Shown: positions 6,250 to 61,866 of the stretch, one piece after another
Layout: each line of letters opens with the position of its first letter
Position numbering within the stretch: position 1 is the stretch's first letter
Source of the DNA: Podospora anserina
Taxonomy: Eukaryota
Direction of reading: 5' to 3'
Assembly (NCBI GenBank): GCA_017654855.1
Contig: CM030334.1
Coordinates: 3,968,001 to 4,032,000 of the forward strand
DNA: 64,000 nt
Notes under the pieces: model-generated
The model's input: only the letters and a program-made list of their open reading frames with translations
Databases searched by the model: none
Told to the model about the DNA's origin: nothing
Translations under genes and position numbers: made by a program

Positions 6250-9200
6250 ATGGGGCCTAGTTTGTTTGTGAAAGTGAAATCCAAGGGCAGAAAGTGGTTG
6301 CAGGCCGCTCCCCGGGAATCCTCGACTCCTTCGCCACAAACACTTTTGCCAACATCATCTCGGCCTGCATCCCAACTAGATACTCGACCAACATCTCAGC
6401 CAACGTCTTCTCCACCTACCTCGACGGATACCAATACCTCATCGCTACCGAGCCTACAAGAGCGACTTTGGAATGAGGCCTACGATGGGGTCAAAGCGAG
6501 CGAACCCAAACTGGTCGGGGCGTACGAGAAGATCTTATCAACTGAACTGCATGGAGACGACCCAAGCTCTGTTATTCCCGAATCAACAGACAACGAGATA
6601 GGAGAGACCCCGGGGACACGAAGCGGCCAAATGCAACAGCTGGTTCAGGCTGGACTGGATCGGACGCAGAAGCAAGCGTCCATCAAGCGAGGCATCGACG
6701 AAGGCTTGCAAGCAGTGCAAGAAGTCAAGAGAGTAGTAGACAAGGCGATGCATGCCGCTCCCGAAGCCGCCGTCGCCTGGGTCGGCGTCTGCCTCGGACT
6801 AGAGGTGTGTGTGATCAGCTTTTCCAACTGAAGAGAGAACGGTGGATGATCCCATGCTGACAGTCGATAGATCCTTTCGAACCCCGTAACCGAGGCACGG
6901 GACAACCGCAAAGGCATCGTCTACGTCCTGTTGAGAATAGAGTGGTACTGGAACTTGGTGTCCCTGCTTCTCGACGAGAACAAGGCCGAGCAATCTTCTG
7001 CGGGACTGCGAGCCCAATTAGAGAAGCATGTCGTGCAGCTCTACGAGAAACTCCTCGCGTATCAGATCAAGAGTGTCTGCCTCTACCACCGCAACTGGGC
7101 AGCCGTCATCGGAAGGGATCTGTGGAAAATCGATGACTGGGCTGGCCAGCTCAACGAGATCAAGGAAGCCGAGGCTGCCGTGCAAAGAGACATGGATCAA
7201 TACAACAGCGAGGACAGCAAGATACAGCTTCGGAAACTCATCGACGTCGCAGGTGCTCTAGAGAAGCAACAGGAGAAGAGGCACCAGGACGACGGGGACA
7301 AGCAATGCCTGAGAGACCTGCTCGAGACTGACCCTCGCGACGACAAGACGCGCATCGAAGACACGAAGGGCGGCCTGCTTAGGGACTCGTACCGCTGGAT
7401 TCTTGACCACGCCGACTTCCAGCGATTTCGCGACGATCCGCAGAGCCGGCTGCTCTGGATCAAGGGTGACCCTGGTAAAGGCAAGACCATGCTCCTATGC
7501 GGCATCATCGACGAGCTAAAGAAGGGACCCAACAGTCTCTTGTCCTATTTCTTCTGTCAGGCCACTGAGGCTCAACTGAGCAATGCGGCGTCTGTGCTAC
7601 GTGGCCTCATCTACCTCCTCATCCTCCAGCAACCATCGCTTATTTCGCACGTCCGGTCAAAGCACGATGTTGCGGGCGAGAAACTCTTCCAGGGCATCAA
7701 TGTCTGGGTGTCTCTGGTTGAGATATTCACGGACATGCTGAAGGACCCGACCTTGAAAGACGCAGTCTTGATCATTGACGCCCTTGACGAGTGCACTACC
7801 GATCGGCCCAAGCTTCTTGACTTCATCATTCAATCGTTGACGATATCTTCATCCCCGGTCAAGTGGATCGTGTCTAGTCGCAACTGGCAGGACATTGAGG
7901 AGAAACTCGACCGTATAGAACAGAAGGTCAGGCTTCAACTCGAGCTAAACCAAGACTCCATCTCTAAGGCTGTCGACACATATATTGAGTGCAAGGTGGA
8001 GGAGCTGGCAGGTCTTAAGAACTACGATAAGAAAACAAGGGACGCCGTTAAGAACCGCTTAACCTCCAATGCTGACGGCACCTTTCTCTGGGTGGCCTTG
8101 GTTTGTAAAGAGCTCGCAGACCCCAAGGCCCGAAAGCGGCATACGCTCTCTAGGTTGCATTCTTTCCCCCCTGGGCTGGATTCTCTATATGGCCGAATGA
8201 TAGAGCATATCCGTGATTCGGAGGATGCTGACCTTTGCAAGGAGGTTCTGGCTATTGCCTCGGTAGTGTATCGACCTGTCACCTTGGATGAACTGAAGGT
8301 TCTTGCTGAGTCACTTGAGGATATTGACCCGGACGACCTGAAAGACATTATTGGCTCCTGTGGCTCTTTCTTGACCCTTCGGGAGAGCGTTGTTTACTTT
8401 GTGCATCAGTCGGCGAAGGATTACCTACTCAGCAAGGCATCCTGCCACATCTTGCCTTCTGGCACCGCGCACCAGCACCATACCCTTTTCTCGAGGTCGC
8501 TAGCGGCTCTGTCAGAGGCCCTGCGACGCGATATTTACGGCCTAAGCACCCCGGGATTCTCCATCGATCAGGTCTCGCTGCCCAATCCCGACCCATTGTC
8601 TTGGATCCGATATTCATGCATCTATTGGGTCGATCATCTCGTCGACTCCAATCCCACAAGCAGCCATAAGGATCTTCAGGATAGCAGCGTTATTCATGGA
8701 TTCATCCAAAAGAAATACCTGTATTGGCTAGAATCTCTCAGCCTCTTACGCAGCATGTCGGAGGGAGTCCAGGCGGTGTACAAACTCGAGGCTTTGGTGG
8801 TGAGTTAATGTGGGCATACACCAGAGACGACCTAACATGTTTATAGAGAAACACGCGATCACAAAAACTGGCAGAACTACTTCGAGACGCGCGCCGGTTT
8901 TTCCTTTCTCACAAACGGCCGATCGAGATTGCTCCATTGCAGACCTATGCGTCGGCACTCGTGTTCAGCCCCGAACGCAGCCTCATTAGAGAACTCTTCA
9001 AGAAGGAAGAGCCAAATTGGATGATACTGAAACCAAGAATGGAAGCGGATTGGAACGCCTGCGTGCAGACGCTCGAGGGCCATGGCGGTTCGGTGATGTC
9101 GGTGGTGTTCTCGGCGGATGGCCAGCGTCTCGCATCGGGCTCGGGCGACGAGACGGTCAAGATCTGGGACGCGGCCACGGGCGCGTGCGTGCAGACGCTC

Positions 9201-10649
9201 GAGGGCCATGGCGGTTCGGTGATGTCGGTGGTGTTCTCGGCGGATGGCCAGCGTCTCGCGTCGGGCTCGCACGACAAGACGGTCAAGATCTGGGACGCGG
9301 CCACGGGCGCGTGCGTGCAGACGCTCGAGGGCCATGGCGGTTGGGTGAGCTCGGTGGTGTTCTCGGCGGATGGCCAGCGTCTCGCATCGGGCTCGGACGA
9401 CAGGACGGTCAAGATCTGGGACGCGGCCACGGGCGCGTGCGTGCAGACGCTCGAGGGCCATGGCGGTTGGGTGAGCTCGGTGGTGTTCTCGGCGGATGGC
9501 CAGCGTCTCGCATCGGGCTCGGACGACAGGACGGTCAAGATCTGGGACGCGGCCACGGGCGCGTGCGTGCAGACGCTCGAGGGCCATGGCGGTTGGGTGA
9601 GCTCGGTGGTGTTCTCGGCGGATGGCCAGCGTCTCGCATCGGGCTCGGACGACAGGACGGTCAAGATCTGGGACGCGGCCACGGGCGCGTGCGTGCAGAC
9701 GCTCGAGGGCCATGGCAGTTTGGTGATGTCGGTGGTGTTCTCGGCGGATGGCCAGCGTCTCGCATCGGGCTCGGGCGACGAGACGGTCAAGATCTGGGAC
9801 GCGGCCACGGGCGCGTGCGTGCAGACGCTCGAGGGCCATGGCGGTTTGGTGAGCTCGGTGGTGTTCTCGGCGGATGGCCAGCGTCTCGCGTCGGGCTCGG
9901 GCGACAAGACGGTCAAGATCTGGGACGCGGCCACGGGCGCGTGCGTGCAGACGCTCGAGGGCCATGGCGGTTGGGTGAGGTCGGTGGTGTTCTCGGCGGA
10001 TGGCCAGCGTCTCGCGTCGGGCTCGGGCGACAAGACGGTCAAGATCTGGGACGCGGCCACGGGCGCGTGCGTGCAGACGCTCGAGGGCCATGGCGGTTGG
10101 GTGAGCTCGGTGGTGTTCTCGGCGGATGGCCAGCGTCTCGCATCGGGCTCGGACGACAGGACGGTCAAGATCTGGGACGCGGCCACGGGCGCGTGCGTGC
10201 AGACGCTCGAGGGCCATGGCGGTTGGGTGAGCTCGGTGGTGTTCTCGGCGGATGGCCAGCGTCTCGCATCGGGCTCGGGCGACGAGACGGTCAAGATCTG
10301 GGACGCGGCCACGGGCGAGTGCGTGCATACACTGGACGTTGGGAGAATATTATATCGTTTTTCATTCGATCCAACGACAAACTCTCTCCTCTCTACGGAC
10401 ATTGGACTTCTAAACCTGGATCACCCGGCTCTACAGCCTGCCGTTGATGATCAGTCGACTGCAATAACCTTACGGGGTGTTCGCCATTCTGGCTGGGGTA
10501 TAAGCACCGACGGTGTATGGATTGTTAAAGATGGAAAGGAGATGCTTTGGCTACCTCCGGACTATCGAGTGGGGGAATACGCTGTTGTCGGATCAACGGT
10601 CGCTATCGGGTGTCGTTCAGGTCGTGTACTAGTGATGAAGTTCTCTTAG
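6250..10649 (+). CDS. nwd1: Fungal NLR (STAND) of the NWD family: NACHT_N domain, NACHT NTPase, 10 highly conserved WD40 repeats; probably nwd1
   Basis: Three exons (6250-6804, 6871-8799, 8847-10649) joined in frame by GT-AG introns with CTGAC/CTAAC branch sites. 'LWNEAYD' N-terminal domain, Walker A GDPGKGKT, Walker B LIIDALDEC, WD repeats 'QTLEGH...VVFSADGQRLASGS.D.TVKIWDAATG'. No HET domain. The symbol is from recall of the Podospora NWD family and is less certain than the architecture. Confidence 0.9.
9060..10319 (+). repeat. Tandem array of ten 126-bp WD40-coding units with very high internal identity
   Basis: Units start at 9060, 9186, 9312, 9438, 9564, 9690, 9816, 9942, 10068 and 10194. 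Units 3, 4, 5 and 9 appear identical. Differences are confined to a few codons. Confidence 0.97.
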
Positions 10650-39020: not shown

Positions 39021-41924
39021 TTTAATAAGTAGGAGAGGTAACATATAGGTAATTAAATAAATACACTAAAGAGGTAAATCACCCTTCTTTTAATCCCACA
39101 TACCAATATAAGCTTATTTCCTAGCATTCCTTAAATAATAATGTAAATCCCGGGCTACCTCGGTTTGCACGTCCCGCTCCCCCGCATTACGTTCCCCCGC
39201 ATACTTAGCTTATTCCCCGCGATCTTGCCTAGACCGGGCGAAATCGTTAACCTTATTCCCTAAAATCCTACAATTATAATAGTAATTACTACGTCGTTAA
39301 TAGCGCGGGGTATTACTAACTATAACGGAGAAATAGAACTAAGCAGTTAGAAACCTAAAGCCCGATTTAATTTCTAAAAAAAGAAGCTTAAAATGCTAGA
39401 TCCACTATAATAGTAAACGTTTGGCTTTAAGGAAAGGCAGATTAATTAAGAGGGGGTTTTCTTTAAGGTTAAATATAACCGGTTCTTAATTTAATATAAT
39501 TACTATAATAAGGTTAGTATATTCTTTAATTTAGGGCGTATAGGTAATTAAGATAAGAATAAAGGGCTTAGAAAAGAGGTTTTGCATAAAGAATAAACCA
39601 AATAAATCGGCGGGTCTTACAATTTTATAGGTAGTATAAAAGAAAGTATTTCGTTAGGAAAGAAATAGGTCGTTAAAAGCTACTAGATTTACGATTTTAA
39701 GAGTAAATGATTTATATAAAGGTTTTACATAAGACTTAACCGTTAGGGGGAAGCTACTAATAGTGGTATATAGGTTACGGTTAAAGTAAAACTCTAGTAA
39801 CTCTATACTTACTCGTTAAAAGTAAAAGTCTTCTAAATTTTTGGGATATATAGGGATAAAGAAGTATATTTATCGCTATTATAGATAATACTAAATATAA
39901 AAAAATAAAATAAAAAATAATAAAGGTTTAGTTAGCCGTATCTTTAGCCTTCCGGTATAGTATACTTTAATTAAGATAGGAATAAATAAAAAAAAAATTA
40001 AGATTTGCCTAATAAACTAATACAGGTAAATATTATATGCCTAAAGACGAAATAGACTATACTAATATATAAAAGGGGTTCGTTATCGAAGCGTTATATC
40101 TATCCGCTAACTCTAAATAATAAATAAATATTAAAAATATTACTAAGAAGGTAGCCGGTAGCTCGCTTCTCTAAAAGACGGGGCAGAGAGGGACCGACAG
40201 TCTCTCGAAATAATAATATTAGTTTGATCCCGAAGTTAAGCCCCATATATTCCAATCAATAACGCATCGCTAAGGCTCTACTTATGGATCCCCGGGTTAA
40301 CTCCACTAATATTCAGTATCGCAATACTAATAGCGTAATATAGAAACGGAAGGATACCGAAATAATATTTCTACCGTTAAACGGTATATATACGGCTAAA
40401 AGAGTAATAAATAAAATATAAAGAATAGTTATTAAGAGTATTATTAAGCAAAGCCGGTTAAGCCAAAGGCCTAAAAAACGACACTATAGCGGGAGGACTA
40501 CCGAGCGGTGCCGCGAGCACAATCGGGATAGGCGATATACTGGCTGACTAGCATCCTTACTAGGACAGGCGTCGTTCCTTCATAGTTAATACTAATACTT
40601 CGGAACTCCAAAGAATTATATCTGTTCTCTCTCGATATTAATCTTATGTACGTTAACCTACTATAAAGGACGACCCTACACTGGATCCCGAATCAGACTA
40701 TTTCGATGTAACGCGATGGGTACGCTATTTTGTCGGACAACTTAATAAGCAAGGCTATAAAGTAACTAACCTAGGTATTATTTTTCGGGACCTGGATGTC
40801 TTTAGGTCGGGTTTAGCTCTATAGCTTTAAAAGACGGTCGATTTAATTCTTCTCGCTCCCTTTTAACTCGGAGAACTATTCGGTAGTTATAAAAAGGAGC
40901 GGAAGTAAATTCTATATAGTTTTAACGGCTTGCTTAAGAGTAGCGAGCTTCTAGCTATTCTGGGCCGTCCTGGATCAGGATGCAGCACCTTTCTTAAAAG
41001 CCTCTACGGAGAACTGTACGGCTTGGACGTCGGTAAGCGGTCCGTTATTTATTATAATAGCGCCTCTTAGGCTTAAATAAAAAAGGAGTTTAAGGGCGAG
41101 GTTATATATAACCAAGAGGTCGATAAGCACTTTCCCCATCTTATAGTCGGTTAAACCCTTAAATACGCTACTGCAATGCGCACCCCCTCCAACCAGGCCG
41201 AGGGCATATCGAGATCTAAATACTGCTAGTATATCGCCCGCGTCATTATAGCTGTTTTTAGCCTTAGTTATACCTATTACATTAAAGTGGGAAATAACTA
41301 TGTACGAGGTATCTCCGGTAGCGAACGAAAGAGGGTCAGTATTACCGAGATAATGGTGGCCGGCTCTCCCATCTCGGCTTAGGATAATAACACACGAGGT
41401 CTTAACTCGACTTTAGCCTTTAAATTTATTTAGGCCCTTCGACTTTATTTTAATATTATTGGTTCGGTAAATACCGTAGCTATATACTAAGCTAGTTAAG
41501 CTATTTACGACGAATTCGATAAGACAATAGTCCTTTATACCGGCCGTTAAATTTATTTTGGCCCTGCTAATGCGGTAAAAGCTTTCTTTAAGCGTTAGGG
41601 CTAGTTCTGCCCTCCTCGTTAAACCACTAGTGACTTTTTGACATCAGTTACTAACCCCGAAGAACGTATCCCTCGACCTGGTATGGAATAAAAGGTACTA
41701 CGGACGCCCGAGGACTTTAAGTAGTACTAGCTTGCTTCGCCCGAGTTTAAGGCCCTCCAAGAAGAAATGGCCGCGTATGACTAAGAGTTTCAGGGAGAGC
41801 GTCAGATCCAAAGTCTGAGCCATCTGCGAGAGACCAAGAATCACAAGCAGGCCAAACACGTCCGCCAAGGTTCCCCATACATCATCAGCATCCCCATGCA
41901 GATCAAGCACAACACTGTTCGCGC
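38504..41924 (+). repeat. Copy 1 (donor) of a 3,421-bp inverted segmental duplication, RIP-mutated
   Basis: Reverse complement of 54064-57484 with identical length. All differences checked are C>T/G>A, mostly CpA>TpA or TpG>TpA. Strongly AT- and TpA-rich core. Confidence 0.96.
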
Positions 41925-44900
41925 CTACCAGAGGGTTTGGAACGATATCTCGGCCACTCTGGTCAATGTCGGTGCTAATCTGATCCTGGCCCTCATTATC
42001 GGTTCCATTTTTTACGGCAACCCCGATGCCACTGTCGGTTTTGAAGGCAAGGGATCTGTCTTGTTCATGGCCATCCTGTTGAACGCCCTCACCGCCATCT
42101 CGGAAATCGATAGTCTTTACGATCAGCGACCCATTGTCGAAAAACATCACTCCTACGCGTTTTACCATCCCGCCACCGAAGCAGCAGCTGGCATTGTGGC
42201 CGACTTGCCCATCAAGTTTGCTGCGGCTGTCGTGTTCAATCTCATTGCCTACTTTCTAGCCGGCCTTGGCCGGACACCCTCTCAATTCTTTCTCTACTTT
42301 TTGATCTCGTACATTTCGACTTTTGTCATGAGCGCCATTTTCCGGACTCTGGCGGCCATCACCAGAACCGTCTCTCAGGCCATGGCGTTGGCTGGTGTGT
42401 TGGCCTTGGCACTGGTCATGTACACTGGCTACATTATTCCTGTGCCGCAGATGCACCCCTGGTTTGGCTGGATTCGGTGGATCAACCCCATCTACTACGC
42501 TTTCGAGATCCTGGTCGCCAACGAGTTCCACGGGAGGGAATTCACTTGCTCGGACATTATCCCGCCATACTCTCCTCCGCAAGGCTCGAGTTGGATCTGT
42601 GCCAGTGCTGGAGCGGTCGCTGGAAGGCCAACCGTCAACGGAGATGCATACATCTCTGTGGCCTACCAGTACACGTACGATCACGTCTGGAGAAACTTTG
42701 GCATCCTCATTGGCTTCTTGATCTTTTTCATGGGCGTGTATTTTGCCGCCGTGGAGCTCAACTCATCCGTGACAAGCACAGCCGAAGCCTTGGTCTTTCA
42801 GCGTGGCCATGTCCCCTCTCACTTGCAAAAGGGTAGAGATGAAGAGCGCGGGGGAGAGGGCGGTGCTGCGGCGGAAAGGGGAGCTCAAAACCCCGAGAAT
42901 AGTGCCATTGAGCCTCAGAAGGACATTTTCACTTGGAAAGATGTGGTGTACGATATTGATGTCAAGGAGGGCAAGCGTCGGCTGTTGGACCATGTCTCTG
43001 GATGGGTGAAACCAGGTACGCTTACGGCTCTGATGGGCGCTTCTGGTGCCGGCAAGACGACATTATTGGACGTTCTCGCCCAGCGCACCAGCATCGGCGT
43101 TGTCACCGGGGACATGCTTGTCAACGGCAGGCCATTCGGGGCCGACTTTCAACGTCAAACCGGTTATGTGCAACAACAAGGTATGTTTTCTATTTCCCGC
43201 CCTTGCCAACTATTTCTAATCCTGATCAGATCTCCATCTGGATACGGCGACTGTGAGAGAAAGTCTCCGTTTCAGCGCCATGCTTCGCCGCCCCAAGACG
43301 GTTTCCAAAGCAGAAAAGTTTGCGTTTGTCGAAGAAGTCATCAAGATGCTCGGCATGGAGGAATATGCCAACGCTGTTGTTGGTATTCCAGGCGAGGGCC
43401 TCAACGTCGAACAACGAAAACTTCTCACGATTGGCGTTGAACTGGTGGCCAAACCCAAACTGTTGCTGTTCTTGGATGAGCCCACCAGCGGCCTTGACTC
43501 GCAGAGCGCCTGGGCCATTTGCGTCTTTCTGCGTAAGCTCGCCGATGCTGGCCAGGCTGTGTTGTGCACTATTCATCAACCCAACGCCATCTTGTTTCAA
43601 CAGTTTGACCGGCTCCTGTTCCTGGCCAAGGGGGGAAAGACAGTCTACTTTGGAAACATTGGACAAAACTCCAAGTCCCTGTTGGAATACTTTGAGCACC
43701 ATGGAGCCAGGCACTGCGGCGACGATGAGAATCCTGCCGAGTACATGCTCGAGATTGTGGCCGAAGGCGCCAACAATAAGGGCCAGGACTGGCATTCGGT
43801 CTGGAAGAACAGCGACGAGTTCAGGGATGTTCTCGCCGAGATTGACAGGATCCATTCTTCTTCCCAACAAGACACCGTCGCCGCTCCTGCTGCGGGAGAG
43901 CCAAACTCGGAGTTTGCCATGCCGTTCCATGCGCAGGTTTGGGAGGTGACACGGCGCATCTTTCAGCAGTACTGGAGAATGCCGGGATATGTCCTGGCCA
44001 AGTTCGCACTGGGAATCATGTCCGGCCTCTTTATTGGTTTCACCTTTTACCAAGCCGACGGGACTCAGGGTGGTATGAGAAATATTGTTTTTGCCGTGTT
44101 CATGGTCACCACCATCTTTACCACACTTGTGCAGCAGGTTCGTTCACCTATCAACTGTTTGAAGTGTCCACCAGCTTACTGACTGTTAAAAGATCCAACC
44201 CCTCTTCATCACCCAACGATCTCTCTACGAAGTTCGTGAGCGCCCTTCCAAGGCGTATTCCTGGAAGGCGTTCCTCATCGCCAATATCGTCGTCGAGATT
44301 CCCTATCAGATCCTCACGGGCATACTCACATATGCGTGCTTTTACTATCCCGTTGTCGGCACAGGCCAGACATCTTCCCGCCAGGGCCTCATCCTGCTCT
44401 TCATCATCCAGCTGTTCATATACGCCAGCGCCTTTGCGCACATGACCATCGTCGCCATGCCGGATGCCCACGCCGCAGCTGGCATCGTCATCCTCCTGAC
44501 AATGATGAGCACCATCTTTAGCGGTGTGCTCCAGACGAGAATCGCATTGCCCGGGTTTTGGGTGTTTATGTACTACGTCAGCCCGTTCACATACTGGATC
44601 AGCGGAATCGTGTCGACTGTGCTGCACGAGAGGCCAGTCGAGTGCTCCGTGTCGGAGACCTTGATCTTTGACCCGCCCCAGGGAATGAACTGCGCGCAGT
44701 ATCTCTCTCCCCTGGCCGGACAGGGTTCAGGCTCACTTCAAAACCCCTTCGACACTGAAGGGTGCAGGTATTGCGGGTTTGGCGTTGCGGACCAATATCT
44801 CGCCGGGGTCGACATCTTTTGGGAGGACAGGTGGAGGAATTTTGGAATCATGTGGGCGTATATCGCGTTCAACATTGCGGTTGCCATTGGAGTTTATTAC

Positions 44901-44933
44901 ATCTTCAGGGTGAGAAAGATGACAAAGAAGTAA
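40582..44933 (+). pseudogene. Pleiotropic drug resistance (ABCG/PDR) transporter: 5' part RIP-inactivated, 3' part intact
   Basis: NBD1 is still legible through many TAA/TAG stops: 'DDPTLDPE', Walker A '[13 protein letters not shown]' at about 40959, '[13 protein letters not shown]'. From about 41795 on the frame is open: TMD1, NBD2 '[11 protein letters not shown]', 'LNVEQRK', '[12 protein letters not shown]', TMD2, two introns (about 43182-43229 and 44138-44192), stop at 44933. Start position approximate. Confidence 0.93.
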
Positions 44934-48402: not shown

Positions 48403-48649
48403 GGTGTTGACGTGGGAGGAGGGGAAACTGGGAGCGCCTGCCGAGAGCAAGAAACGAAAGCGACAGCATCTCTTGGTTTTAAGGTTCGGATCGACAATCT
48501 CCTGCCCGGAAGGGAAAGCCGGGTCTAGCATCCGAGGACGGCAGGTATGTTGTTCAACGTCCCATTCAGATGACATAATCAAGGCCCGATCCAGAAGGTG
48601 GTTTATAAGTGGGCGCGCCAAGCAATGGGAAGCATAATTTGTCAATTAA

Positions 48650-50017
48650 TTAATCTCTGAGCCAGCCCTTGGGACCGCCCCAGGTGCCTTTAACCATATA
48701 TTTGTAGTATACCCAAGGAAAAAAGTCCTTCTTCAAGTGATAAAATGCCCGTCTCGGCACCGCCTGGTCAATCCTCAGCGCCTTTCCAAACGTCTCCTTG
48801 GGTACGCCGCCGTACTTGAACTCGGCCAGCAGCACCTTGCCGTACTCTGTCAACAGCGGGCACGATGTGTAGCCGTCATACTCCTCGTCCGCCTCCTTGC
48901 CCCTCATTGACCTCAGCACATTCTTGACCAGAACCGGCGCTTGCGCCGTGATGGCTGCGGCCGTCTTGGACGTGGGCAAACTGGAAGCATCTCCGGCACT
49001 CCACACATTCTTCCACTTTTTGTGCCGGAGCGTCTCTTCGTCGACATCGACAAACCCAGCCTCGTTGGCAAGAGGACTGGATTTGACAAAGGCGTGAGCG
49101 CCCATCTTGGGAGTGACGTGCATCAGGTCAAACTTGCGGGTGAGCTTCTGGTTCTCGCCATGGCTAAACACGGCATCGTTGCCGTTGATTTCGACCAGAT
49201 CATGCGCAAACAGTCCCTCTACTCCTCTCTCTTTCCGCAGCTTTTCCAGCACGGCAGAGTACTTGGGAACGCCAAACATGACGGGAAGACCGGTCGCGAA
49301 TGTGATGTGGATGGGCGATGACGAGGGGTTTGCTGGGTCGTAAAGACCGGATTTCTTCCAGTGATCAAGGGCAAGCCACATGATCTTTTGAGGAGCGCCG
49401 GCGCACTTGACAATACCCATCGGCTGGGTGAAAATGGCCTGGCCGCCCTTGAGAGCCTTGATGGTGCGATCCGCCTTGTCGCACGTGTCGTAGCCGTAGA
49501 TGGAGGAGACGCCCGAATCTGGGTTGGAGAGGGCATCATGAAGCCCCTTGATGCTGTTGAAGTCGACCTTGATTCCGGGCACCACGACGAGATGCTCATA
49601 GGTGAGCTTGTCACCGTTGTCGAGAGTGACAGTGTTGGAATCTGGCGAGAAGGATGACAACTCTGTATTGTAGAATCGCAGCTTGGGATCGATCAAACTC
49701 TTGAGTGGTTTCCTGAGCTGCTCCTTATTCTTGAGACCGCCGCCCACCAGGGTCCATCCGGGCTGGTAGTGATGCCATTCTGCCGGGTCGACAATCGCAA
49801 TGTCGTCTTGGGAGAATTTCCCCTTGCGCAGGAGCTGGTGGCTGATGGTCAGACCAGCTGAACCACCGCCGACAACGACGACCTTGTGATTTCTGGTGGT
49901 GGGGGTGACATTGGCGACACTCGCAAAAGTGCGCACGGCAGCCGGGGCCAGTTGCGTGATGACTGAGCGGCGGGCAGCACAGGCTGCTGTGGTGACTAAT
50001 AGTTGACTGCTGGACAT
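48650..50017 (-). CDS. SQOR: Mitochondrial sulfide:quinone oxidoreductase (SQOR/Hmt2 family)
   Basis: 455 aa. Arg/Ala/Thr-rich presequence, FAD motif 'VVVVGGGSAG', 'HHYQPGWTLVGGG'. Both catalytic Cys motifs present: 'VKCAGAPQK' and 'YDGYTSCPL'. Confidence 0.95.
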   Translation of the reverse strand: MSSSQLLVTTAACAARRSVITQLAPAAVRTFASVANVTPTTRNHKVVVVGGGSAGLTISHQLLRKGKFSQDDIAIVDPAEWHHYQPGWTLVGGGLKNKEQLRKPLKSLIDPKLRFYNTELSSFSPDSNTVTLDNGDKLTYEHLVVVPGIKVDFNSIKGLHDALSNPDSGVSSIYGYDTCDKADRTIKALKGGQAIFTQPMGIVKCAGAPQKIMWLALDHWKKSGLYDPANPSSSPIHITFATGLPVMFGVPKYSAVLEKLRKERGVEGLFAHDLVEINGNDAVFSHGENQKLTRKFDLMHVTPKMGAHAFVKSSPLANEAGFVDVDEETLRHKKWKNVWSAGDASSLPTSKTAAAITAQAPVLVKNVLRSMRGKEADEEYDGYTSCPLLTEYGKVLLAEFKYGGVPKETFGKALRIDQAVPRRAFYHLKKDFFPWVYYKYMVKGTWGGPKGWLRD

Positions 50018-50845
50018 GTTGGGATGGTGATGACGGGATGTCTGTCAAACGGAGGTCTGAGATCTCAGATCCAGGAACAGGAGAGGTGCGTGCTGAATGA
50101 GATGGAGGACAAAGAGCTGAAATGGTGTGCTCGAGCGTGAGCGAATTACCCAGCGGAGACGGCCAAATGTGGAGCAAGTCGCCGAGTCCCGGAGCTGTGA
50201 AACTTTTCTTGTCGCCGATCGAGTTGACTGCACTTGTGATGACTCGGCCACCGGGTGAGCAAGTTTCTCTTCCTCCCATGGTACTCGGTCGGCGAAAACA
50301 GACATTCCACACATCCGATGAAATTTTTCTCCCGGGCCGAGCCACCCGGTTAGTCACAGCGTTGCAATAATCGCCGTCTCTACGGCTGTCGGTGGCAGTC
50401 GGCGGCGTCGGAACTCGGCGGATGATGGGCATCGTGGTGCTGAAAAACGGTTTCTAAGGAGAAAAAGCTGAATATGGCGAGATCAATCAGTGAGTGAAGT
50501 GGCTTCTCTTTTCTTCATCATATCAACAAGCTGGCGTCGACGACGATGATTTCTTGATGTCGCCGTTGACGATGGCCGATAGACAGCGACGCCGGCAGCA
50601 CAGACCACCAGTTGCCGGGCCGCTGTAAGTCACCCGGAGGTGGTGCCACGATGGACTGACGGCGATATCACGGGCCAGGATTCCCAGCTTAACCCCCATG
50701 TTTCTTGCCTCCCGGTAATGCCCAGTAGGCCGGCGTCTGCAACATCCCTGCAACACTTGTCATACACAAAGCTTAAACAGACCGACTCCCATCCCCACTG
50801 ATCAGTGTGTTGTCCTTGCCCTCACCCACGCTCACCGAGACCACC

Positions 50846-52045
50846 ATGAACACCCTTCAGGTACAGCAATGCGTTGAAAACGCCATCAGATGCCAGGCGA
50901 CCAGCCGCCTGCTCCTCACCCCCCTGGTCATTTCTTCGCTTCGACTTCCACGCACCCAACTTTTCTACCACTCTCAACGTCGGTCTTTCCACCGAGCGGC
51001 GGCAGGGAGACCCTGTTGTCGACAATCTCAAAATCCACCTCGACTGTCTCAATGTCTACTACGCAAGACCTACTCTTCAGCTACTCCCCCTGCTCCGTCA
51101 GAACCTACCATTCATCCAGTCTTTGAACAGAGAACTGGCACTTTTCAATATCTAGTCGTCGATCCAGTGACCAAGGACGCAGTCATTATCGACCCTGTTT
51201 TGGACTACGACAAGTGCAGCACCACCATTACCACCACCACGGCTGACGGCCTCCTGTCTTTGGTCCGTGAAAAGGGATACAGGATCGTGCGCATTCTAGA
51301 GACCCACGCCCATGCCGATCACTTGACTGCTTCCTTTTACCTCCAACGGCAGCTGGTCAAGCAGCAGGACCTGAAACCCCCCGTGGGCATCGGCAAGCGG
51401 ATTGGACAGGTACAGACCTTGTTTGGGCAGAGATATGGGATCGACGCCAAAGAGTATGAAGGTGTTTTCGACAAACTGTTCGAGGACGATGAAGAGTTTT
51501 CTATTGGAACGTTAAAGGCAAAAGCCCTGCATCTTCCCGGCCACACCCCAGATCATTTGGGATACAAGATCGGAGGTCTGTCTCCTTTTCCCTTTCGACG
51601 TAAAGAACCCTGCTAACTTGGATGCCCAGACAATATTTTTTGCGGAGACTCCATCTTCCACACTGACATTGGCACGGCAAGGTGTGATTTTCCCGGCGGA
51701 TCGGCCCACGCCTTGTATCAGTCAGCCCGTAAGATCTTGTCTCTGCCTGATAATGTCAAGATCTGGACCGGGCATGACTATCCACCCGATGGTTTGAGAG
51801 AGCCTGTGCCATTTGTCACCGTTGGCGAGCACCGCCAGAAGAACAAGCACCTGAGAGATGGCGTAACTGAAGAGGAATTTGTCAAGATGAGAAAGGAAAG
51901 AGACGAGCATCTGGCTGCCCCAAGACTGCTGCATGAGAGTCTACAGGTGAATGTGAGAGCTGGAAGATTGCCAAGTCAAAACGACTCCGGCATGAGGTTG
52001 TTAAAGGTGCCTGTCAAAGTCAAGGGAGCTGGAGCATGGCAGTAG
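50846..52045 (+). CDS. Persulfide dioxygenase (metallo-beta-lactamase fold, ETHE1/Blh-like) with a mitochondrial-type presequence
   Basis: Exons 50846-51575 and 51630-52045 (GT-AG, GCTAAC branch site). Motifs 'IIDPVLDYD', 'ILETHAHADH', 'PGHTPDH', 'CGDSIF', 'GTARCDFPGG', 'GHDYPP', 'PRLLHESLQVNVRAG'. Confidence 0.92.
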
Positions 52046-52523
52046 GTGGGTGGAAATTGCAAAAGCATGACCAGGCCGACGACTTGTGTAACTCGTACTG
52101 CTACGGTCCTTTCACAGCCGTGATTGTCACTATCGGCAAGACCTCACCGTGGAGGCAGGAGAAGGTGGCGGCGTACGTGACTGCGTCCGTGGGGTTTTTG
52201 GCTCTTCTCCATGCTTGCCCATGTCTGTCTCTATCAAGAGCTTTGTTTTCTGTTCCCGGGCATGGATCATTCAGAAGATGGCATGCTGTCCCAGTCACTG
52301 GTTGAAGATGGAGGGAATATACGATTCGTAGCTTGGCTAATGGACAATTCTTTTATGGGCAATATGCTATCTAAATGTGGTATAAAACCACCTGCAATGA
52401 TGCATATTGAGTGCGCTGCGTCCTTGTGACTTTTATAAGCCGCTGATTGGAATGTTGACATGAGGACAGGTACCATCCACCTCAAGCCTACGCTGAATTC
52501 TAAATTCCTAGAGACGTAGAGAT

Positions 52524-53496
52524 CTAAATCTGGTCCTGAAAACTATCAGCCGCCGGTTGCTCGGTAGCCTTCATTGCAGCATCATGAGCATCCACGTTCC
52601 ACTCTTTCGGGATCTTCCGAAATTGAACAGCCATGTTCCTCTCCTTGGCTTTCTCAATCTCACCCAACAAAGCCTCCCATAAATCCCTGTTCGCGACGTC
52701 CCCCCCCTTGCTCGTTTTTCTATTGCTTTTCGATCCAAGTTTCGGCCCATGTGGTAGAGCCCTCAACCACATACTTGGAATTGATAGCGATGACAAGTGT
52801 GCGGAAACCTTCTTCGTTGGGTCCGAATTCAAAACGCAGGGTGGCAAGGGCAGCGCGAAGCTCCGCCCGGTTGCTGGTCTGGGAGCCATCGTCGCCAAAA
52901 GGCCACTTCCTTTCCAGGCGAGCAGAAACGATTTTTGGGTAATCCTGGTCGGGCGCGCGGGCATGTACAAGGGCCCAGCCTGCCTTTGGGTCCGGTGTGC
53001 GACGGTCGAGACATGTCCCAGCGATGAAGATCAGGGCGGTGAAGGCATCAGTCCGGTGAACGTATCTGCGAGATTGCATTTTAGCCAGCATAATATCACC
53101 CTGTTCAGGGGGGAACTTACTTGAGGAGACCATTTTTCGGCCGAAAAACCTTAAATAAGTCGGTAGGGGTTGCTGAAGCAGACGGGTGGGTAAACTCGGT
53201 AGGGAAGACAAGACCGGCGCCTTTTCTCCACTCCAATTCATTGAGTCTGGTAGCTGGATCCAACGTTCTGGGTTGTTGTTGTTGATGTTTGTCTCTGGGA
53301 AATGCTGCGGAGTTTTGGAAAAGAGGAATGTCAGGTCTTGCGGGTTGTTCAAGTGGAAATGGGTTTCTGAACAACAACCAGAGATATGGAAGCTGGGGGC
53401 AGACCTGTGGCATGCCTGCCATACGCTCAACATTGAGTGCCAGGTGTGACTGCGGTCTGATGATATGTTGTCGTAAGTAAGGTAAGAACGAGGCAT
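52524..53496 (-). pseudogene. Fungal RNase H-domain gene, degenerate
   Basis: 'QTSNRAELRAALATL', 'EGFRTLVIA', 'VANRDLWEALLGEIE', 'IPKEWN'. Catalytic motifs are altered (DGAC-like reads AGTC; TDS-like reads INS). A frameshift in an A-run at about 52722-52730 splits the domain. 5' limit uncertain. Confidence 0.78.
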
Positions 53497-53704
53497 TCGG
53501 ATCTAGCACACCAGACAGGGTCCAGTCCCACCTCTCTGGACAGATTCTCATTCAGCCATGGGTGGGTCTTTCGTTGCAAATCTTTTAGGATTACCTGCCC
53601 GGTTCTGAATGTCAAAGTATTATCATCGATTCGGGGCTTCAGCAAGGTGTCAGGGTTACCACGCGCTTTGGGCAAGCGGGAATCCACAAAGGTGTTTTCA
53701 TGCT

Positions 53705-54063
53705 TTAACGTCTGACTGCGATTCGTTGAGACTTCTTGACTATACTTTCCGTGTCTCTTCTACTGGTCTTGTCCTGGAAACCTGGTCCCTCAACAATTAT
53801 TGCACACTGAGATTCACATTCTTTTTCCATACGAGGAACAAAATCCTTGATTTTTCTACTTCTCATCTCGTAGTTGATTTTGTACCTCTCCAGCATCCCA
53901 GCTTCCACCGTTATGCCAGTATACTGCCCAGCCCAACGTCGACTCCGATCCACCTGCATGCCCTGTTTCGCGTCCATTTCACCGCCAGCTGAGATGCCAG
54001 GGAAACAAATGCTATCCAACCAGAACGTCGACGTCCCTGTAGCCAATGACAGGCTGGCAGCCT
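53705..54063 (-). pseudogene. Probable 3' part of a gene split by duplication copy 2
   Basis: The open frame (AASLSLATGTSTFWLD...) joins in frame with the ORF upstream of 57485 when the duplicated block is removed. Confidence 0.5.
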
Positions 54064-57000
54064 GCGCGAACAGTGTTGTGCTTGATCTGCATGGGGATGC
54101 TGATGATGTATGGGGAACCTTGGCGGACGTGTTTGGCCTGCTTGTGATTCTTGGTCTCTCGCAGATGGCTCAGACTTTGGATCTGACGCTCTCCCTGAAA
54201 CTCTTGGTCATACGCGGCCATTTCTTCTTGGAGGGCCTTGAACTCGGGCGAAGCAAGCCAATACTGCTCAAAGTCCTCGGGCGTCCGTAGCACCTTTTGT
54301 TCCATGCTAGGTCGAGGGATACGTTCTTCGGGATTAGTAACTAATGTTAAAAAGTTATTAGTAGTTTAACGAGGAGGGCAGAACTAGCCTTAACGCTCAA
54401 AGAAAGCTTTTACCGCATTGGTAGGGCCAAAGTAGATTTGACGGCCGGCATAAAGGACTGTTATCTTATCGAATTCGTCGTAAATAGTTTAACTGGCTTA
54501 GTATATAGCCACGGTATTTACCGAGCTAATAATATTGGAATAAAGTCGAAGGGCCTAGATAAATTTAAGGGCTAAAGTCGAGTTAAGACCTCGTATACTA
54601 TTGTCCTAAGCCGAGATGGGAGAGCCGGCTACCATTATCTCGGCAATACTGACCCTCTTTCGTTCGTCACCGGAGATACCTCGTACGTAGTCATTTCCCA
54701 CCTTAGTGTAATAGGTATAACTAAGGCCAAAAACAGCCATAACGACGCGGGCGATATACTGGTAGTATTCAGATCTCGACATGCCCTCGGCCCGGTTAGA
54801 GGGGGTACGCATTACAGCGGCGTATTTAAAGGTTTAACCGACTATAAGATAGGGAAAATACTTATCGACCTCTTAATTATATATAACTTCGCCCTTAAAC
54901 TCCTTCTTTATCTAAGCCTAAAAGGCGCTATTATAATAAATAACGGACCGCTTACCGACGTCCAAGCCGTACAGCTCTCCGCAGAGGCTCTTAAGAAAGG
55001 TGCTGCATCCTAATCCAGGACGGCCCAGAATAGCTAGAAGCTCGCTACTCTTAAATAAACCGTTAAAACTATATAAAATTTACTTCCGCTCCTTTTTATA
55101 ACTACCGAATAGTTCTCCGAATCGAAAGGGGGCGAGAAAAACTAAATCGACCGTCTTTTAAAGCTATAGAGCTAAACCCGACCTAAAAACATTTAGGTCC
55201 CGAAAAATAATACTTAGGTTAGTTACCTTATAGCCTTACTTATTAAATTATCTAACAAAATAGCGTACCTATCGCGTTATATCGAAATAATTTAATTCAG
55301 GATCTAGTATAGGGTCGTCCTTTATAGTGGGTTAACGTATATAAGATTAATGTCGAGAGAGAATAGATGCGATTCTTTAGAGTTCCGAGGTATTAGCATT
55401 AACTATAAAGGAACGACGCCTGTCCTAGTAAGGATATTAGTCAGCCAGTGTATCGCCTATCCCGATCGTACTCGCGGTACCGCTCGGTGGTCCTCCCGCT
55501 ATAGTATCGTTTCTTAGGCCTTTAGCTTAACCGGCTTTACTCGATAATACTCCTAACGACTATTCTTTACATTTTATTTATTACTCTTTTAACCGTATAT
55601 ATACCGTCTAACGGTAGAAACGTTATCTCGGCATCCTTCCGTTTCTATATTACGCTATTAGTATTGCGATATCGAATATTAGCGGAATTAACCCGGAGAT
55701 CTATAAGTAGAGCCTTAGCGATACGTTATCGACTGGAATATGTGGGGCTTAACTTCGGGATTAAACCGATACTGTTATTTCGAGAGACTATCGGTCCCTC
55801 TTTACCCTATCTTTCGGAGAAGCGAGCTACCGGCTACCTTCCTAATAACATTTTTAATATTTATTTATTATTTAGGGTTAGCGGATAAATATAACGTTTC
55901 GATAACGAACCTCTTTTATATATTAGTATAGTCTATCTCGTCTCTAGGTATATAATATTTACCTATATTAATTTATTAAGTAAATCTTAACTTTTTTTTC
56001 GTTTATTTTTATCTCGATTAAAGTATATTATGCCGGAAGGTTAAAGATACGGCTAATTAAATCTTTATTATTTTTTATTTTATTTTTTTATATTTAATAC
56101 TATCTATAATAGTAATAAGTATACTTCTTTATCCTTACATATCCTAAAAATTCAGAAGACTTTTGCTTTTAGCGAGTAAATATAGAGTTACTAGAGTCTT
56201 GCTTTAACCGTAATCTATATACCACTATTAGTAGCTTCCCCTTAACGATTAAGTTTTATATAAAACCTTTATATAAATCATTTACTTTTAAAATTATAAA
56301 TCTAGTAGCTTTTAACGACCTATCTCTCTCCTAACGAAATACTTTTTTCTATACTATTTATAAAATTATAGGACCCGCCGATTTATTTAGTTTATTCTTT
56401 ATATAAAATCTTTTTTCTAGGCCCTCCATTCTTATTTTAATTACTTATACGCCCCAAATTAAAGAATGTACTAACCTTATTATAGTAATTATATTAAATT
56501 AAAAACCGGTTATACTTAACCTTAAAGAAAACCCCCTCTCAATTAATCTGCCTTTCCTTAAAGCCGAACGTCTGCTATTATAGTGGATCTAGCATTTTAA
56601 GCTTTCTTTTTTAAAAACTAAATCGGGCTTTAGGTTTTTAGTTATTTAGTTTTATTTCTCCGTTATAGTTAGTAATACCCCGCGCCACTAATAACGTAGT
56701 AATTATTACTATAGTTATAGGATTTTAGGGAATAAGGTTAACGATCTCGCCCGGTCTAAGCAAGATCGCGGGGAATAAGCTAAGTATGCGGGGGAATATA
56801 ATGCGGGGGAGCGGGACGTGTAAACCGAGGTGGCCCGGGATTTGCATTATTATTTAAGGAATGCTAGGAAATAAACCTATATTAGTATATAGGATTAAAA
56901 GAAAGGTGGTTTACCTCCTTAGTATACTTATTTAATTGCTTACATATTACCTCTCCCACCTATTAAAATAAGTGTTCCCGGAGCTGCTCTGTCCGAAAAA

Positions 57001-60064: not shown

Positions 60065-60724
60065 CCTGTCGTTCTCGAGAGGCAGAATGCAGTGACTACC
60101 TTGATAGAAAAGAGTGGCGAAAACAATCACTATACGATTGTGACAAGTTGAGTCTTGCGCTGTACTGCGATCGAGGGTGAGGCAAACCACCAAAAGAGGG
60201 CGTACAGAATGGGGATGGCGGCGCGTCTTGGGGCAAGAAGGTTTAATGAATCTGGGAGACGCGATCTGGGGGCTCAGTGCGGGACGGTCCAGAGAGGCCC
60301 CTGCAAAACGTGTTTCTGGAAGTTCCGCCGCTTTGGTTCGGCGGTGTGGGGCAGATTACCCGTTTTATGCCGCGGCCGATGATGATATCTTTTTCAAAAG
60401 AAACATCCGCGCAATTGATGAACGATGGTAGACAAAGAAATTAATACAGCTGATGCTCTACAAGAAGTATGCACAAAAGAAACCGCTCAGGGCGTGCCTT
60501 GTCATTATGCTGTATTCCAGATGCCAATAGTCTTGAAAAGACTGTTCATGTTACAGTTCGAATTTTAAACAGAGTCCCAGGAAACACCAAACGCCTAGCC
60601 AAACGCCCAATCTGATGCAACAGTCTTGTACATGTCTGCCATGACTCCCGGGGTCTAATGGTGTATGTAAAAGCAAATCGGAGATCCACCCCAGGTAGCC
60701 TTCCATGTCTCTTGACCACCAGCA

Positions 60725-61479
60725 TTATACCATGAACGACTCGCCACATCCACACTGCTCCTCTGCTTGCTGTTAGCATGTGCGCTCAGGTCGACTAAAA
60801 GTGCAGGCAAAAAAGACTCACTGATGTTGGGGTTCCGGAAAACAAAACGTTGGCTAAGCTTGTCCTCTATCCAGTCCATCTCGCTCCCGATAATGCTGAA
60901 GAGTGCTTTGCTGTCAATCAACACCTTGACTCCGTCTTGCTCAACCGTCTCGTCAAAAGCCCCAGGCTTCTCCACGAACTCGAGATGATACGCCAATCCA
61001 GAGCACCCCCTGTTGCGCACACCGACCTTGATGAGCTTCGGGTCCGGCTGGTCGAGAAGCGCGCGTAGGTGGTCTACGGCGGCGGGAGTGAGCTTCATTG
61101 CCGCCTTTCGGGGAGCGCGCAACTTGGACCGCGGCCTTGGCGATGGCGCTGATAGCTGTGTACTTGACTTGGACTGCTGGGCTTCTCTCTCGGGGAGCGA
61201 CGAGGCTGGGTCTAGAGGCGCCTGCGGCTCTTTCGGCGGCCGGGTCTCGTGTACTCTCGGCAACGCGGGGGACTGAACATTGTGTGTGATGGAGGTATCA
61301 GGAGCCGTGGCATTGCGCGGCGCCGGGGGTGGGTGAGAAGGTAACGAGTAGGACTGAAAAGCAGCGGCGAGCTGGGCCGGCGTCGACGAGAACTGACGTT
61401 GTTGGTTGCTGCTTCGAAAGAAGCTGCGGCGGCAAGCTAGACACGCCGCTCTCCTGGCTAGTAAACTAGACGCGTTCAT
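60725..61479 (-). CDS. ISA1: Mitochondrial A-type Fe-S cluster assembly protein
   Basis: Presequence from Met at 61479, 'GVRNRGCSGLAY'. Intron 60821-60763, then a final exon giving 'NPNIKEQCGCGESFMV*'. Confidence 0.95.
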
Positions 61480-61866
61480 TCTGAAGTTGGGAAAACGATA
61501 TCTCGAGGGTATTCGCAGGTTTGGTGAGGGTGAGGTTATGGCAGCATGGGAATTGCGTCGCAGAGATGGGCATTTGTCAACTTTGGTGAAGCGGCAAATG
61601 CGAAGCAGCAACCGACAACTTCTGATCAATCAGCCGGAGTGATGACATGACGCCAAGAGCCCAGCCGACACTGATTCTGCCCAGCCAATCAACGATCGTG
61701 CATTTGGAATGCATTCAAGACGCACGGGCCCTGTCGACAACAACAAGTGAATTGAATATTCTCAAAGACTCGACCAGATCAAAACAGTAGACAGTATGGT
61801 ATACTCAGCTCCCACAACCGTAACGCCATCCAATTGACCCATTCTTCAATCTCGGTTACGCCATGG

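What the first reader, a model, noticed from the sequence alone, without database searches (positions are those of the whole stretch)
48650..52045. Head-to-head SQR + persulfide dioxygenase pair: a candidate fungal sulfide-oxidation gene module
Seen: an intact sulfide:quinone oxidoreductase (both catalytic Cys motifs) and an intact MBL-fold persulfide dioxygenase diverge from a shared 828-bp interval (50018-50845). Both have Arg-rich, acid-poor N-terminal extensions. Established: SQR turns H2S into persulfide and PDO/ETHE1 oxidises glutathione persulfide to sulfite, i.e. consecutive steps. The genes are commonly linked in heterotrophic bacteria but unlinked in humans. Inference: this is a co-regulated, mitochondrially targeted two-gene H2S-detoxification or energy module, plausible for a dung or soil fungus. 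Both genes remain intact amid pseudogenes, which suggests selection. I do not know of a description of such a fungal cluster but cannot check the literature.
Basis: partly seen in the sequence, partly recalled or inferred. Interest (0 to 1): 0.82.

Follow-up and report, generated by a model that had tools for sequence, protein, structure and literature searches.

The report
Fungal two-gene sulfide oxidation module
Two enzymes that carry out consecutive steps of hydrogen sulfide oxidation sit back to back around a shared control region in many filamentous fungi, together with a conserved short DNA motif, which gives a ready handle on how these fungi sense and clear sulfide.

Summary
Confirmed and extended. 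An intact human-type SQR (48650-50017, minus) and a persulfide dioxygenase (PDO; 50846-52045, plus, one 54-nt intron) diverge from an 828-bp spacer. RNA-like contigs of three studies cover them as separate pieces, with the intron spliced. The PDO is the proteobacterial type II kind, not ETHE1. The pair is not local. Accessions are consecutive in 16 of 18 ascomycete species matched, and the genes are head-to-head in 15 of 18 informative metagenome loci (12 of 15 distinct) while flanking genes change. A basidiomycete with both genes keeps them apart, and both genes group with other Dikarya in trees, so the pair was probably assembled in Pezizomycotina rather than imported as an operon. New here: a pseudo-palindrome TCG(G/C)CGA occurs in 12 of 13 spacers (6 of 6 held out; 0 of 1000 shuffles), three times in this window. 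It also lies upstream of an AOX, a sulfate permease and a mitochondrial carrier flanking the pair elsewhere. Activity, localisation and sulfide induction are inferred, not shown. The PDO is broken in 2 of 12 linked loci. Ten literature searches found no description.

The parts
48650..50017 (-). SQR coding sequence, 455 aa, intronless, human-type (type II) sulfide:quinone oxidoreductase; Cys205/Cys386; leader with R-x-F-A (R29, A32 invariant in 32 fungal SQRs)
48623..50262 (-). Extent of SQR RNA-like contigs (upstream ends 50033, 50062, 50262 in three runs; poly-T loose end before 48626 in one run)
   Evidence: contigs cannot fix true starts
50018..50845 (.). 828-bp divergent spacer, candidate bidirectional promoter; 50263-50515 is not covered by any of the three RNA-like runs
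50179..50185 (-). TCG(G/C)CGA motif copy 1 (lies within the longest SQR contig)
50212..50218 (-). TCG(G/C)CGA motif copy 2 (lies within the longest SQR contig)
50289..50295 (+). TCG(G/C)CGA motif copy 3 (in the uncovered gap)
50846..51575 (+). PDO exon 1: about 85-aa Arg-rich extension, then MBL core with THAHADH (H154, D158) and PGHT (H233)
51576..51629 (+). 54-nt GT..AG intron; a GT donor sits at the same codon position in 8 other loci
51630..52045 (+). PDO exon 2: D250, R261, H292, Y294, H317, R331, R334, L343
50516..52362 (+). Extent of PDO RNA-like contigs (upstream ends 50516, 50561, 50579; poly-A loose end at 52362 in one run)

Best explanation
An old two-gene module of filamentous ascomycetes for mitochondrial sulfide oxidation. 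SQR oxidises H2S, passes electrons to ubiquinone and leaves a sulfane sulfur, probably as glutathione persulfide (established for human and bacterial homologues; inferred here). The type II PDO, an Fe-dependent MBL enzyme, burns that persulfide with O2 to sulfite, which goes on to thiosulfate or sulfate through enzymes encoded elsewhere (inferred). Both genes were inherited vertically in Dikarya and brought head-to-head in or near the Pezizomycotina ancestor (linkage shown; timing inferred). A shared spacer with TCG(G/C)CGA sites, usable from either direction, keeps the producer and the remover of the toxic persulfide in step (motif shown; function inferred). Shown: sequence, splicing, separate transcript-like contigs, synteny, motif enrichment, trees. 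Inferred: activity, matrix location, sulfide induction, reason for linkage.
For: SQR: E 1e-93 to human SQOR, both Cys motifs; leader R29 and A32 invariant in 32 fungal SQRs, matching the R-3 processing motif (recalled). PDO: best solved relatives 9g8t, 4ysk, 4efz at E 2e-70 to 2e-64 against ETHE1 4chl 5e-17 and glyoxalase II 1e-6 (query P0001); Blh model E 6e-89; 14 of 17 PpPDO pocket residues listed in PMC9163753 kept. Synteny: consecutive accessions or tags in 16 of 18 ascomycete species where both genes of one assembly could be matched. Metagenome loci: 15 of 18 informative, all 15 divergent, with different flanking genes between lineages. Postia unlinked in 2 of 2 assemblies; 0 of 5 non-Pezizomycotina loci with 2 kb or more upstream hold a PDO. 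Motif: 16 hits against 0.81 shuffled (discovery, 6 of 7 spacers) and 8 against 0.55 (held out, 6 of 6), 0 of 1000 shuffles each; 2.8 per kb against 0.21 per kb in other non-coding DNA; TCG(A/T)CGA not enriched. A. nidulans SQR transcript is reported raised in a sulfide-overproducing mutant (passage in PMC7589619 citing a paper I could not see).
Against: No activity, localisation or induction data. The PDO is broken by stops and frameshifts in L001 and L008 beside an SQR that aligns without a break, i.e. 2 of 12 distinct linked loci. Three informative loci (L015, L032, L037) have no PDO within 3.4-8 kb upstream. A. nomiae accessions are 3 apart and A. oryzae 3.042 accessions 88 apart. L024 is linked but lacks the exact motif; L032 and two Agaricomycete-type loci (L045, L048) have the motif without a PDO seen, so it may be an SQR element rather than a pair element. 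Two of the three window copies fall inside the longest SQR contig. Three pocket residues differ from PpPDO (Y177 to I, M259 to A, V261 to R). The first 20 PDO residues are a poor presequence. Spacers are not all independent (L005/L009, L010/L039, L014/L016, L007/L013 are related pairs).
Confidence: 0.72

Rival explanations
1. Same enzymes and linkage, but the purpose is sulfane-sulfur supply and sulfur salvage (feeding cysteine synthesis, persulfidation and re-assimilation of sulfite or thiosulfate), with PDO as the overflow valve, rather than detoxification of outside H2S.
For: In S. pombe, which lacks PDO, Sqr is reported to supply reactive sulfur for cysteine synthesis (PMC8577491 passages). 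Both genes are covered in RNA-like runs with no sulfide treatment on record. A sulfate permease lies next to SQR in L007 and L013.
Against: PDO destroys sulfane sulfur, so co-regulating it with SQR fits removal better. The CYS3/MetR site ATGRYRYCAT (recalled consensus) is absent from all 13 spacers. An AOX sits beside the pair in L012. Not exclusive of the best explanation.
Confidence: 0.2
2. A frozen head-to-head arrangement: the genes share a promoter by history, and the conserved motif drives SQR alone.
For: The motif also occurs upstream of SQR without a PDO seen (L032, L045, L048). The PDO has decayed in 2 linked loci. Divergent pairs are commonly stable (general knowledge).
Against: The partner is exactly the next enzyme of the pathway. 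Flanking genes are not conserved. L015, L022 and L037 (no PDO seen; L022 has only 1.4 kb upstream) lack the motif. In several loci the motif lies 130-220 bp from the PDO start.
Confidence: 0.12
3. The pair came in as a bacterial sqr-pdo operon by horizontal transfer into the Pezizomycotina ancestor.
For: Type II PDO is described as limited to Proteobacteria among prokaryotes (PMC5702731 passage). Bacterial relatives are 43-48% identical. SQR is intronless. Divergent pdo/sqr pairs exist in bacteria (8 of 16 linked loci among L053-L078).
Against: The PDO tree joins Pezizomycotina with Postia and Rhodosporidiobolus (SH-aLRT 99), outside the named proteobacterial group (95). Fungal SQRs of Asco- and Agaricomycetes form one branch (100) apart from bacterial SQRs (98). 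Type II PDO also occurs in Umbelopsis and Phlyctochytrium. Trees were quick LG+G4 runs without a clade test; an older transfer of PDO alone stays open.
Confidence: 0.04
4. The MBL protein is not a persulfide dioxygenase but a glyoxalase II-like or other hydrolase.
For: Source names include 'Glyoxylase B2' and 'beta-lactamase hydrolase-like'; it scores under the Blh cut-off because it lacks the N-terminal rhodanese part (298.7 against 625).
Against: GloB model 67.9 bits against Blh 298.7; pocket residues kept; conserved linkage to SQR.
Confidence: 0.04

Closest known systems
Proteobacterial sqr-pdo gene clusters (e.g. Cupriavidus pinatubonensis; 441 genomes in PMC5702731, passages seen)
   Same: Type II SQR next to a type II PDO; consecutive steps from sulfide to sulfite.
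   Different: Eukaryotic; two separate transcript-like units from a divergent spacer, with an intron and N-terminal extensions. No rhodanese domain or gene in the pair, whereas 385 of 454 bacterial clusters have one (PMC9163753 passage). No FisR/CstR-type regulator. Trees point to independent assembly.
Human mitochondrial SQOR-ETHE1-rhodanese pathway
   Same: SQR is closest to human SQOR among solved structures; the same chemistry and compartment are inferred.
   Different: The dioxygenase is type II, not ETHE1/type I. The human genes are unlinked (recalled).
Pseudomonas putida PDO2 (PDB 4YSK/4YSL) and relatives 9G8T, 4EFZ; Blh/SdoA group
   Same: E 1e-64 over residues 91-372; 14 of 17 listed pocket residues kept.
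   Different: About 85-aa N-terminal extension; Y177 to I, M259 to A, V261 to R; fungal-specific insert after the HADH helix.
S. pombe Sqr/Hmt2 (PMC8577491, passages seen)
   Same: Fungal mitochondrial SQR.
   Different: S. pombe has no PDO, so its Sqr accumulates sulfane sulfur; here a remover is linked.
Divergent fungal gene pairs that handle toxic intermediates (McGary, Slot and Rokas 2013; cyanase-carbonic anhydrase pair) - recalled, not seen
   Same: Two consecutive enzymes, head-to-head, with a toxic intermediate between them.
   Different: I do not recall SQR-PDO among the described pairs and could not check (not held).

Membership tests
Type II (human-like) SQR | FAD-binding GxGxxG fold with two catalytic Cys at the human SQOR positions | tested here: met
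Type II (human-like) SQR | Closer to SQOR than to type I SQR, FCSD or NDH-2 | tested here: met
   318 bits against 68 or less for bacterial SQR/FCSD/NDH-2 structures
Type II (human-like) SQR | Sulfide-dependent quinone reduction | not testable with these tools
   needs an assay
Type II persulfide dioxygenase (SdoA/Blh/PpPDO2) | His/His/Asp metal triad (H74, H149, D170 of PpPDO2; role recalled) | tested here: met
   H154, H233, D250
Type II persulfide dioxygenase (SdoA/Blh/PpPDO2) | Glutathione-pocket residues of 4YSL | tested here: met
   14 of 17 kept, including R181, Y214, R250, R253, L262 equivalents; 3 differ; one listed residue ('T149') left out as a likely misprint
Type II persulfide dioxygenase (SdoA/Blh/PpPDO2) | Groups with type II, apart from type I, in a tree | tested here: met
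   (4 type I-like outgroup rows, support 94)
Type II persulfide dioxygenase (SdoA/Blh/PpPDO2) | GSSH + O2 to sulfite | not testable with these tools
   needs an assay
ETHE1 / type I PDO | Higher similarity to ETHE1 than to type II | tested here: not met
   65 bits against 221-241 bits
Blh bifunctional sulfurtransferase/dioxygenase (NF040641) | N-terminal rhodanese-like domain and curated cut-off | tested here: not met
   matches profile positions 138-421 only; 298.7 under 625
Bacterial sqr-pdo operon | One co-transcribed unit of bacterial descent | tested here: not met
   divergent genes, separate contigs; fungal branches in both trees
Fungal metabolic gene cluster (co-regulated, conserved pair) | Linkage kept across lineages while flanks change | tested here: met
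Fungal metabolic gene cluster (co-regulated, conserved pair) | Co-regulation | tested here: inconclusive
   shared conserved motif; contigs give no expression levels
Mitochondrial matrix proteins | Cleavable presequence and import | tested here: inconclusive
   composition and invariant R29-x-x-A32 in SQR; PDO leader atypical in its first 20 residues; no predictor available

The most novel reading that the evidence does not exclude
The pair is the core of an undescribed sulfide/persulfide regulon of filamentous ascomycetes. An unknown factor, possibly Zn2Cys6 since the site holds CGG, binds TCG(G/C)CGA and switches on SQR and PDO. Where they have joined the locus it also switches on the alternative oxidase (L012), a SulP permease (L007, L013) and a mitochondrial carrier (L007). 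The result is a complete branch, sulfide to ubiquinone to AOX with product export, that keeps electrons flowing when sulfide blocks complex IV. The factor would be a eukaryotic counterpart of bacterial sulfide sensors such as FisR or CstR, and the cluster a convergent rebuild of the bacterial operon.
Probability: 0.3. Interest if true: 0.82.

Novelty: new variant of a known kind. Interest (0 to 1): 0.62.

Why it matters
[quoted passage not shown] This locus names the probable enzymes, shows they are a conserved linked pair in Aspergillus, Penicillium-like, Dothideomycete, Leotiomycete-like and Sordariales genomes, and supplies a 7-bp candidate site with which the regulator can be fished out. 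It bears on tolerance of H2S, polysulfides and sulfur fungicides, on fungal sulfur oxidation in soil, and on how eukaryotic gene clusters arise without operon transfer. The chemistry itself is textbook, which caps the surprise.

Tried and rejected
Recent operon transfer: rejected by the trees and by basidiomycete, mucoromycete and chytrid type II PDOs. ETHE1 and glyoxalase II identities: rejected. Known sites in the spacers (consensus recalled, AIM): ATGRYRYCAT 0 of 13; CGG-N7-CGG raised in discovery (8 against 2.2) but not in held-out spacers (2 against 1.7); URS1-like TCGGCGGC 2 + 2 hits, weakly raised and one base from the new motif. The Zn2Cys6 genes near SQR in L012/L011 and L037/L022 are not homologous to each other and have no match in the window, so no linked regulator is conserved. 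L026 and L029 were dropped as chimeric contigs; 21 further Pezizomycotina-type loci had too little upstream DNA. Paecilomyces, Colletotrichum, Hypocreales and Sclerotinia clusters gave no matched assembly, so linkage there is untested. The bacterial promoter scan was uninformative. No RNA holder is on record as RNA; the three runs laid are guesses, supported by the spliced intron in all three and poly-A/T ends in two. No whole genome was held, so rhodanese, sulfite oxidase, a type I PDO and genome-wide motif sites could not be sought. Sattler 2015, McGary 2013 and Sienko 2014 were not held. Earlier scan findings: nothing fungal. No structure or complex prediction was run.
Full report
Observation. 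The window holds an intronless 455-aa frame at 50017->48650 and a gene starting at 50846 on the other strand, 828 bp apart. The first matches human SQOR at E 1e-93 with both Cys motifs (C205, C386), far ahead of other SQR, FCSD and NDH-2 structures. The second needs a 54-nt GT..AG intron at 51576-51629 to give 381 aa. Contigs of three RNA-like runs from three studies skip exactly this intron, while a DNA run does not. They cover SQR and PDO as separate pieces with an uncovered gap at 50263-50515, and two runs show poly-T or poly-A ends at 48626 and 52362. These runs are not on record as RNA, and contigs give no levels. The closest named relatives are Podospora proteins at 98%.

What the second enzyme is. 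With the 98%-identical P0001 as query, the best solved relatives are 9g8t, 4ysk and 4efz (221-241 bits); ETHE1 scores 65 and human glyoxalase II 31. NCBIfam gives Blh 298.7 bits over its dioxygenase part and GloB 67.9. Counting along the 4ysk alignment, 14 of 17 pocket residues listed in the methods of PMC9163753 are kept. It is therefore a type II PDO, a group that PMC5702731 finds limited to Proteobacteria among prokaryotes.

Synteny by accession. Both genes of one assembly could be matched in 18 ascomycete species. Accessions or locus tags are consecutive in 16: Cercophora sp., Chaetomium olivicolor, Echria macrotheca, Melanomma pulvis-pyrius, Diplodia seriata, D. intermedia and ten Aspergillus species. 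They are 3 apart on one contig in A. nomiae and 88 apart in A. oryzae 3.042.

Synteny by DNA. Of 78 loci from the metagenome scan, 43 carry an SQR at 54% identity or more. Two of these fall outside the Pezizomycotina branch, two are chimeric and 21 have too little upstream DNA. Of the 18 left, 15 have the PDO, all head-to-head; merging near-duplicates gives 12 of 15. Spacers run from about 290 to 1340 bp where both starts were found. Flanks differ: DPP IV and RNase H-like here, AA9/GH62, DUF202/UCH, SulP, AOX/Zn2Cys6, SNF and MutY/HET elsewhere. A GT donor at the window's intron position recurs in 8 other loci, is absent in L039, and L012 shows a break at the same place. Against universality, the PDO is broken in L001 and L008, and L015, L032 and L037 show none.

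Origin. Type II PDOs also occur in Postia, Rhodosporidiobolus, Umbelopsis (with an N-terminal rhodanese-like part, my reading) and Phlyctochytrium. In a 51-row tree the Pezizomycotina PDOs join the two basidiomycetes and two unnamed rows at support 99, outside the named proteobacterial group; Umbelopsis and Phlyctochytrium are unresolved (rows picked from the 213). Fungal SQRs form one branch at 100, apart from bacteria. In Postia the genes lie on different scaffolds in both assemblies (IEO21_01439 and 09013), and none of five non-Pezizomycotina loci with 2 kb or more upstream holds a PDO. The simplest reading is two old fungal genes joined in the Pezizomycotina lineage. The trees are quick runs with no clade test, and Orbilio- and Pezizomycetes were not sampled.

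A conserved site. In seven spacers the top 7-mers were CGGCGAC (7 of 7) and TCGGCGA (6 of 7). TCG(G/C)CGA was then counted in six spacers not used for discovery: 6 of 6, 8 hits against a shuffled mean of 0.55; discovery 16 against 0.81; no shuffle of 1000 reached either. Density is 2.8 per kb against 0.21 in other non-coding DNA of the same loci, and the A/T-centred variant is not enriched. The only 828-bp tile of the window with three copies is the one holding the spacer's copies (1 of 77). The 13 spacers stand for about nine or ten lineages. Four of the 15 background hits lie upstream of an AOX in L012, of a SulP permease in L007 and L013, and of a mitochondrial carrier in L007. This was noticed after the fact and two of the four are orthologues, so it is suggestive only. 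The carrier's best solved relatives are UCP1/2; a dicarboxylate-carrier identity is my recollection. The site also appears upstream of SQR in L032, L045 and L048 without a PDO seen, so it may be older than the pair.

Mechanism. SQR oxidises H2S onto ubiquinone and hands sulfane sulfur to glutathione; PDO oxidises the persulfide to sulfite (pathway as described in PMC5702731 and PMC9163753). Excess sulfane sulfur is toxic (PMC9163753 passage), which gives a reason to couple producer and remover at one promoter. Matrix location rests on leader composition and an invariant R29-x-x-A32 in 32 SQRs; it is weaker for the PDO. I put this reading at about 0.72, a salvage or supply role at 0.2, neutral linkage at 0.12, and operon transfer or a non-PDO activity at 0.04 each; the first two overlap.

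Literature. Ten full-text searches returned no listing that describes a fungal SQR-PDO pair, a fungal type II PDO or this site. I saw search listings, plus passages only of PMC5702731, PMC9163753, PMC13266210, PMC5295593, PMC7589619 and PMC8577491; no whole text and no supplements. PMC7589619 assumes an SQR-SDO-rhodanese pathway in A. nidulans and says no data explain it. Sienko 2014, Sattler 2015 and McGary 2013 were not held, and subscription papers or supplementary cluster tables may already list the pair.

Verdict. Real, conserved and probably undescribed as a unit: a new eukaryotic variant of a known bacterial arrangement, with a candidate regulatory site that makes the regulator findable. 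Interest 0.62.

Noticed in passing
L012:4441-5630 (-) and L012:10267-12021 (+): An alternative oxidase lies directly beyond the PDO, with TCGGCGA at about 6002 upstream of it, and a Zn2Cys6 gene follows SQR; L011 has a related Zn2Cys6 start after SQR.
   Followed up: partly
L007:4487-8345, L013:7101-9272: SulP sulfate permease after SQR in both loci, and a mitochondrial carrier after it in L007, each with the motif upstream.
   Followed up: partly
P0365, P0321, P0329, P0347, P0354, P0373: Type II PDOs with an N-terminal extension that looks rhodanese-like, in Umbelopsis and unnamed sequences; a eukaryotic parallel to Blh/PRF fusions. Domain not scanned.
   Followed up: no
P0324 (Gaeumannomyces), P0325, P0364: A second, more divergent Pezizomycotina type II PDO lineage without the N-terminal extension.
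   Followed up: no
L017:7929-9833, L018:7851-9752: Intronless SQRs in intron-poor loci (Malassezia-like by recollection, untested) that branch nearer Pezizomycotina than Agaricomycete SQRs (support 83) and run on in frame into about 170 further residues; possible transfer and fusion.
   Followed up: no
P0025, P0102, L005, L007, L010, L016: Many fungal PDOs have a second Met just before the catalytic core, which could give a cytosolic isoform; the window's PDO has none there.
   Followed up: no
window 52524-55100 (-): RNase H-like frame with an early stop, and a stop-riddled AT-rich copy of a PDR-type ABC transporter that shares a 47-aa stretch identical to the gene at 41785-44933; looks like a RIP-mutated duplicate.
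   Followed up: partly
window 6871-10649 (+): NWD NACHT-WD40 (HNWD-type NLR-like) gene split over two frames near 8808-8847.
   Followed up: no
window 60655-61629 (-): Fe-S biosynthesis (IscA-like) gene 8.6 kb from the PDO; not seen among the neighbours scanned in other loci, probably chance.
   Followed up: partly
L001:3246-4006, L008:1061-1894: PDO pseudogenes still head-to-head with an apparently intact SQR, both keeping the motif.
   Followed up: yes
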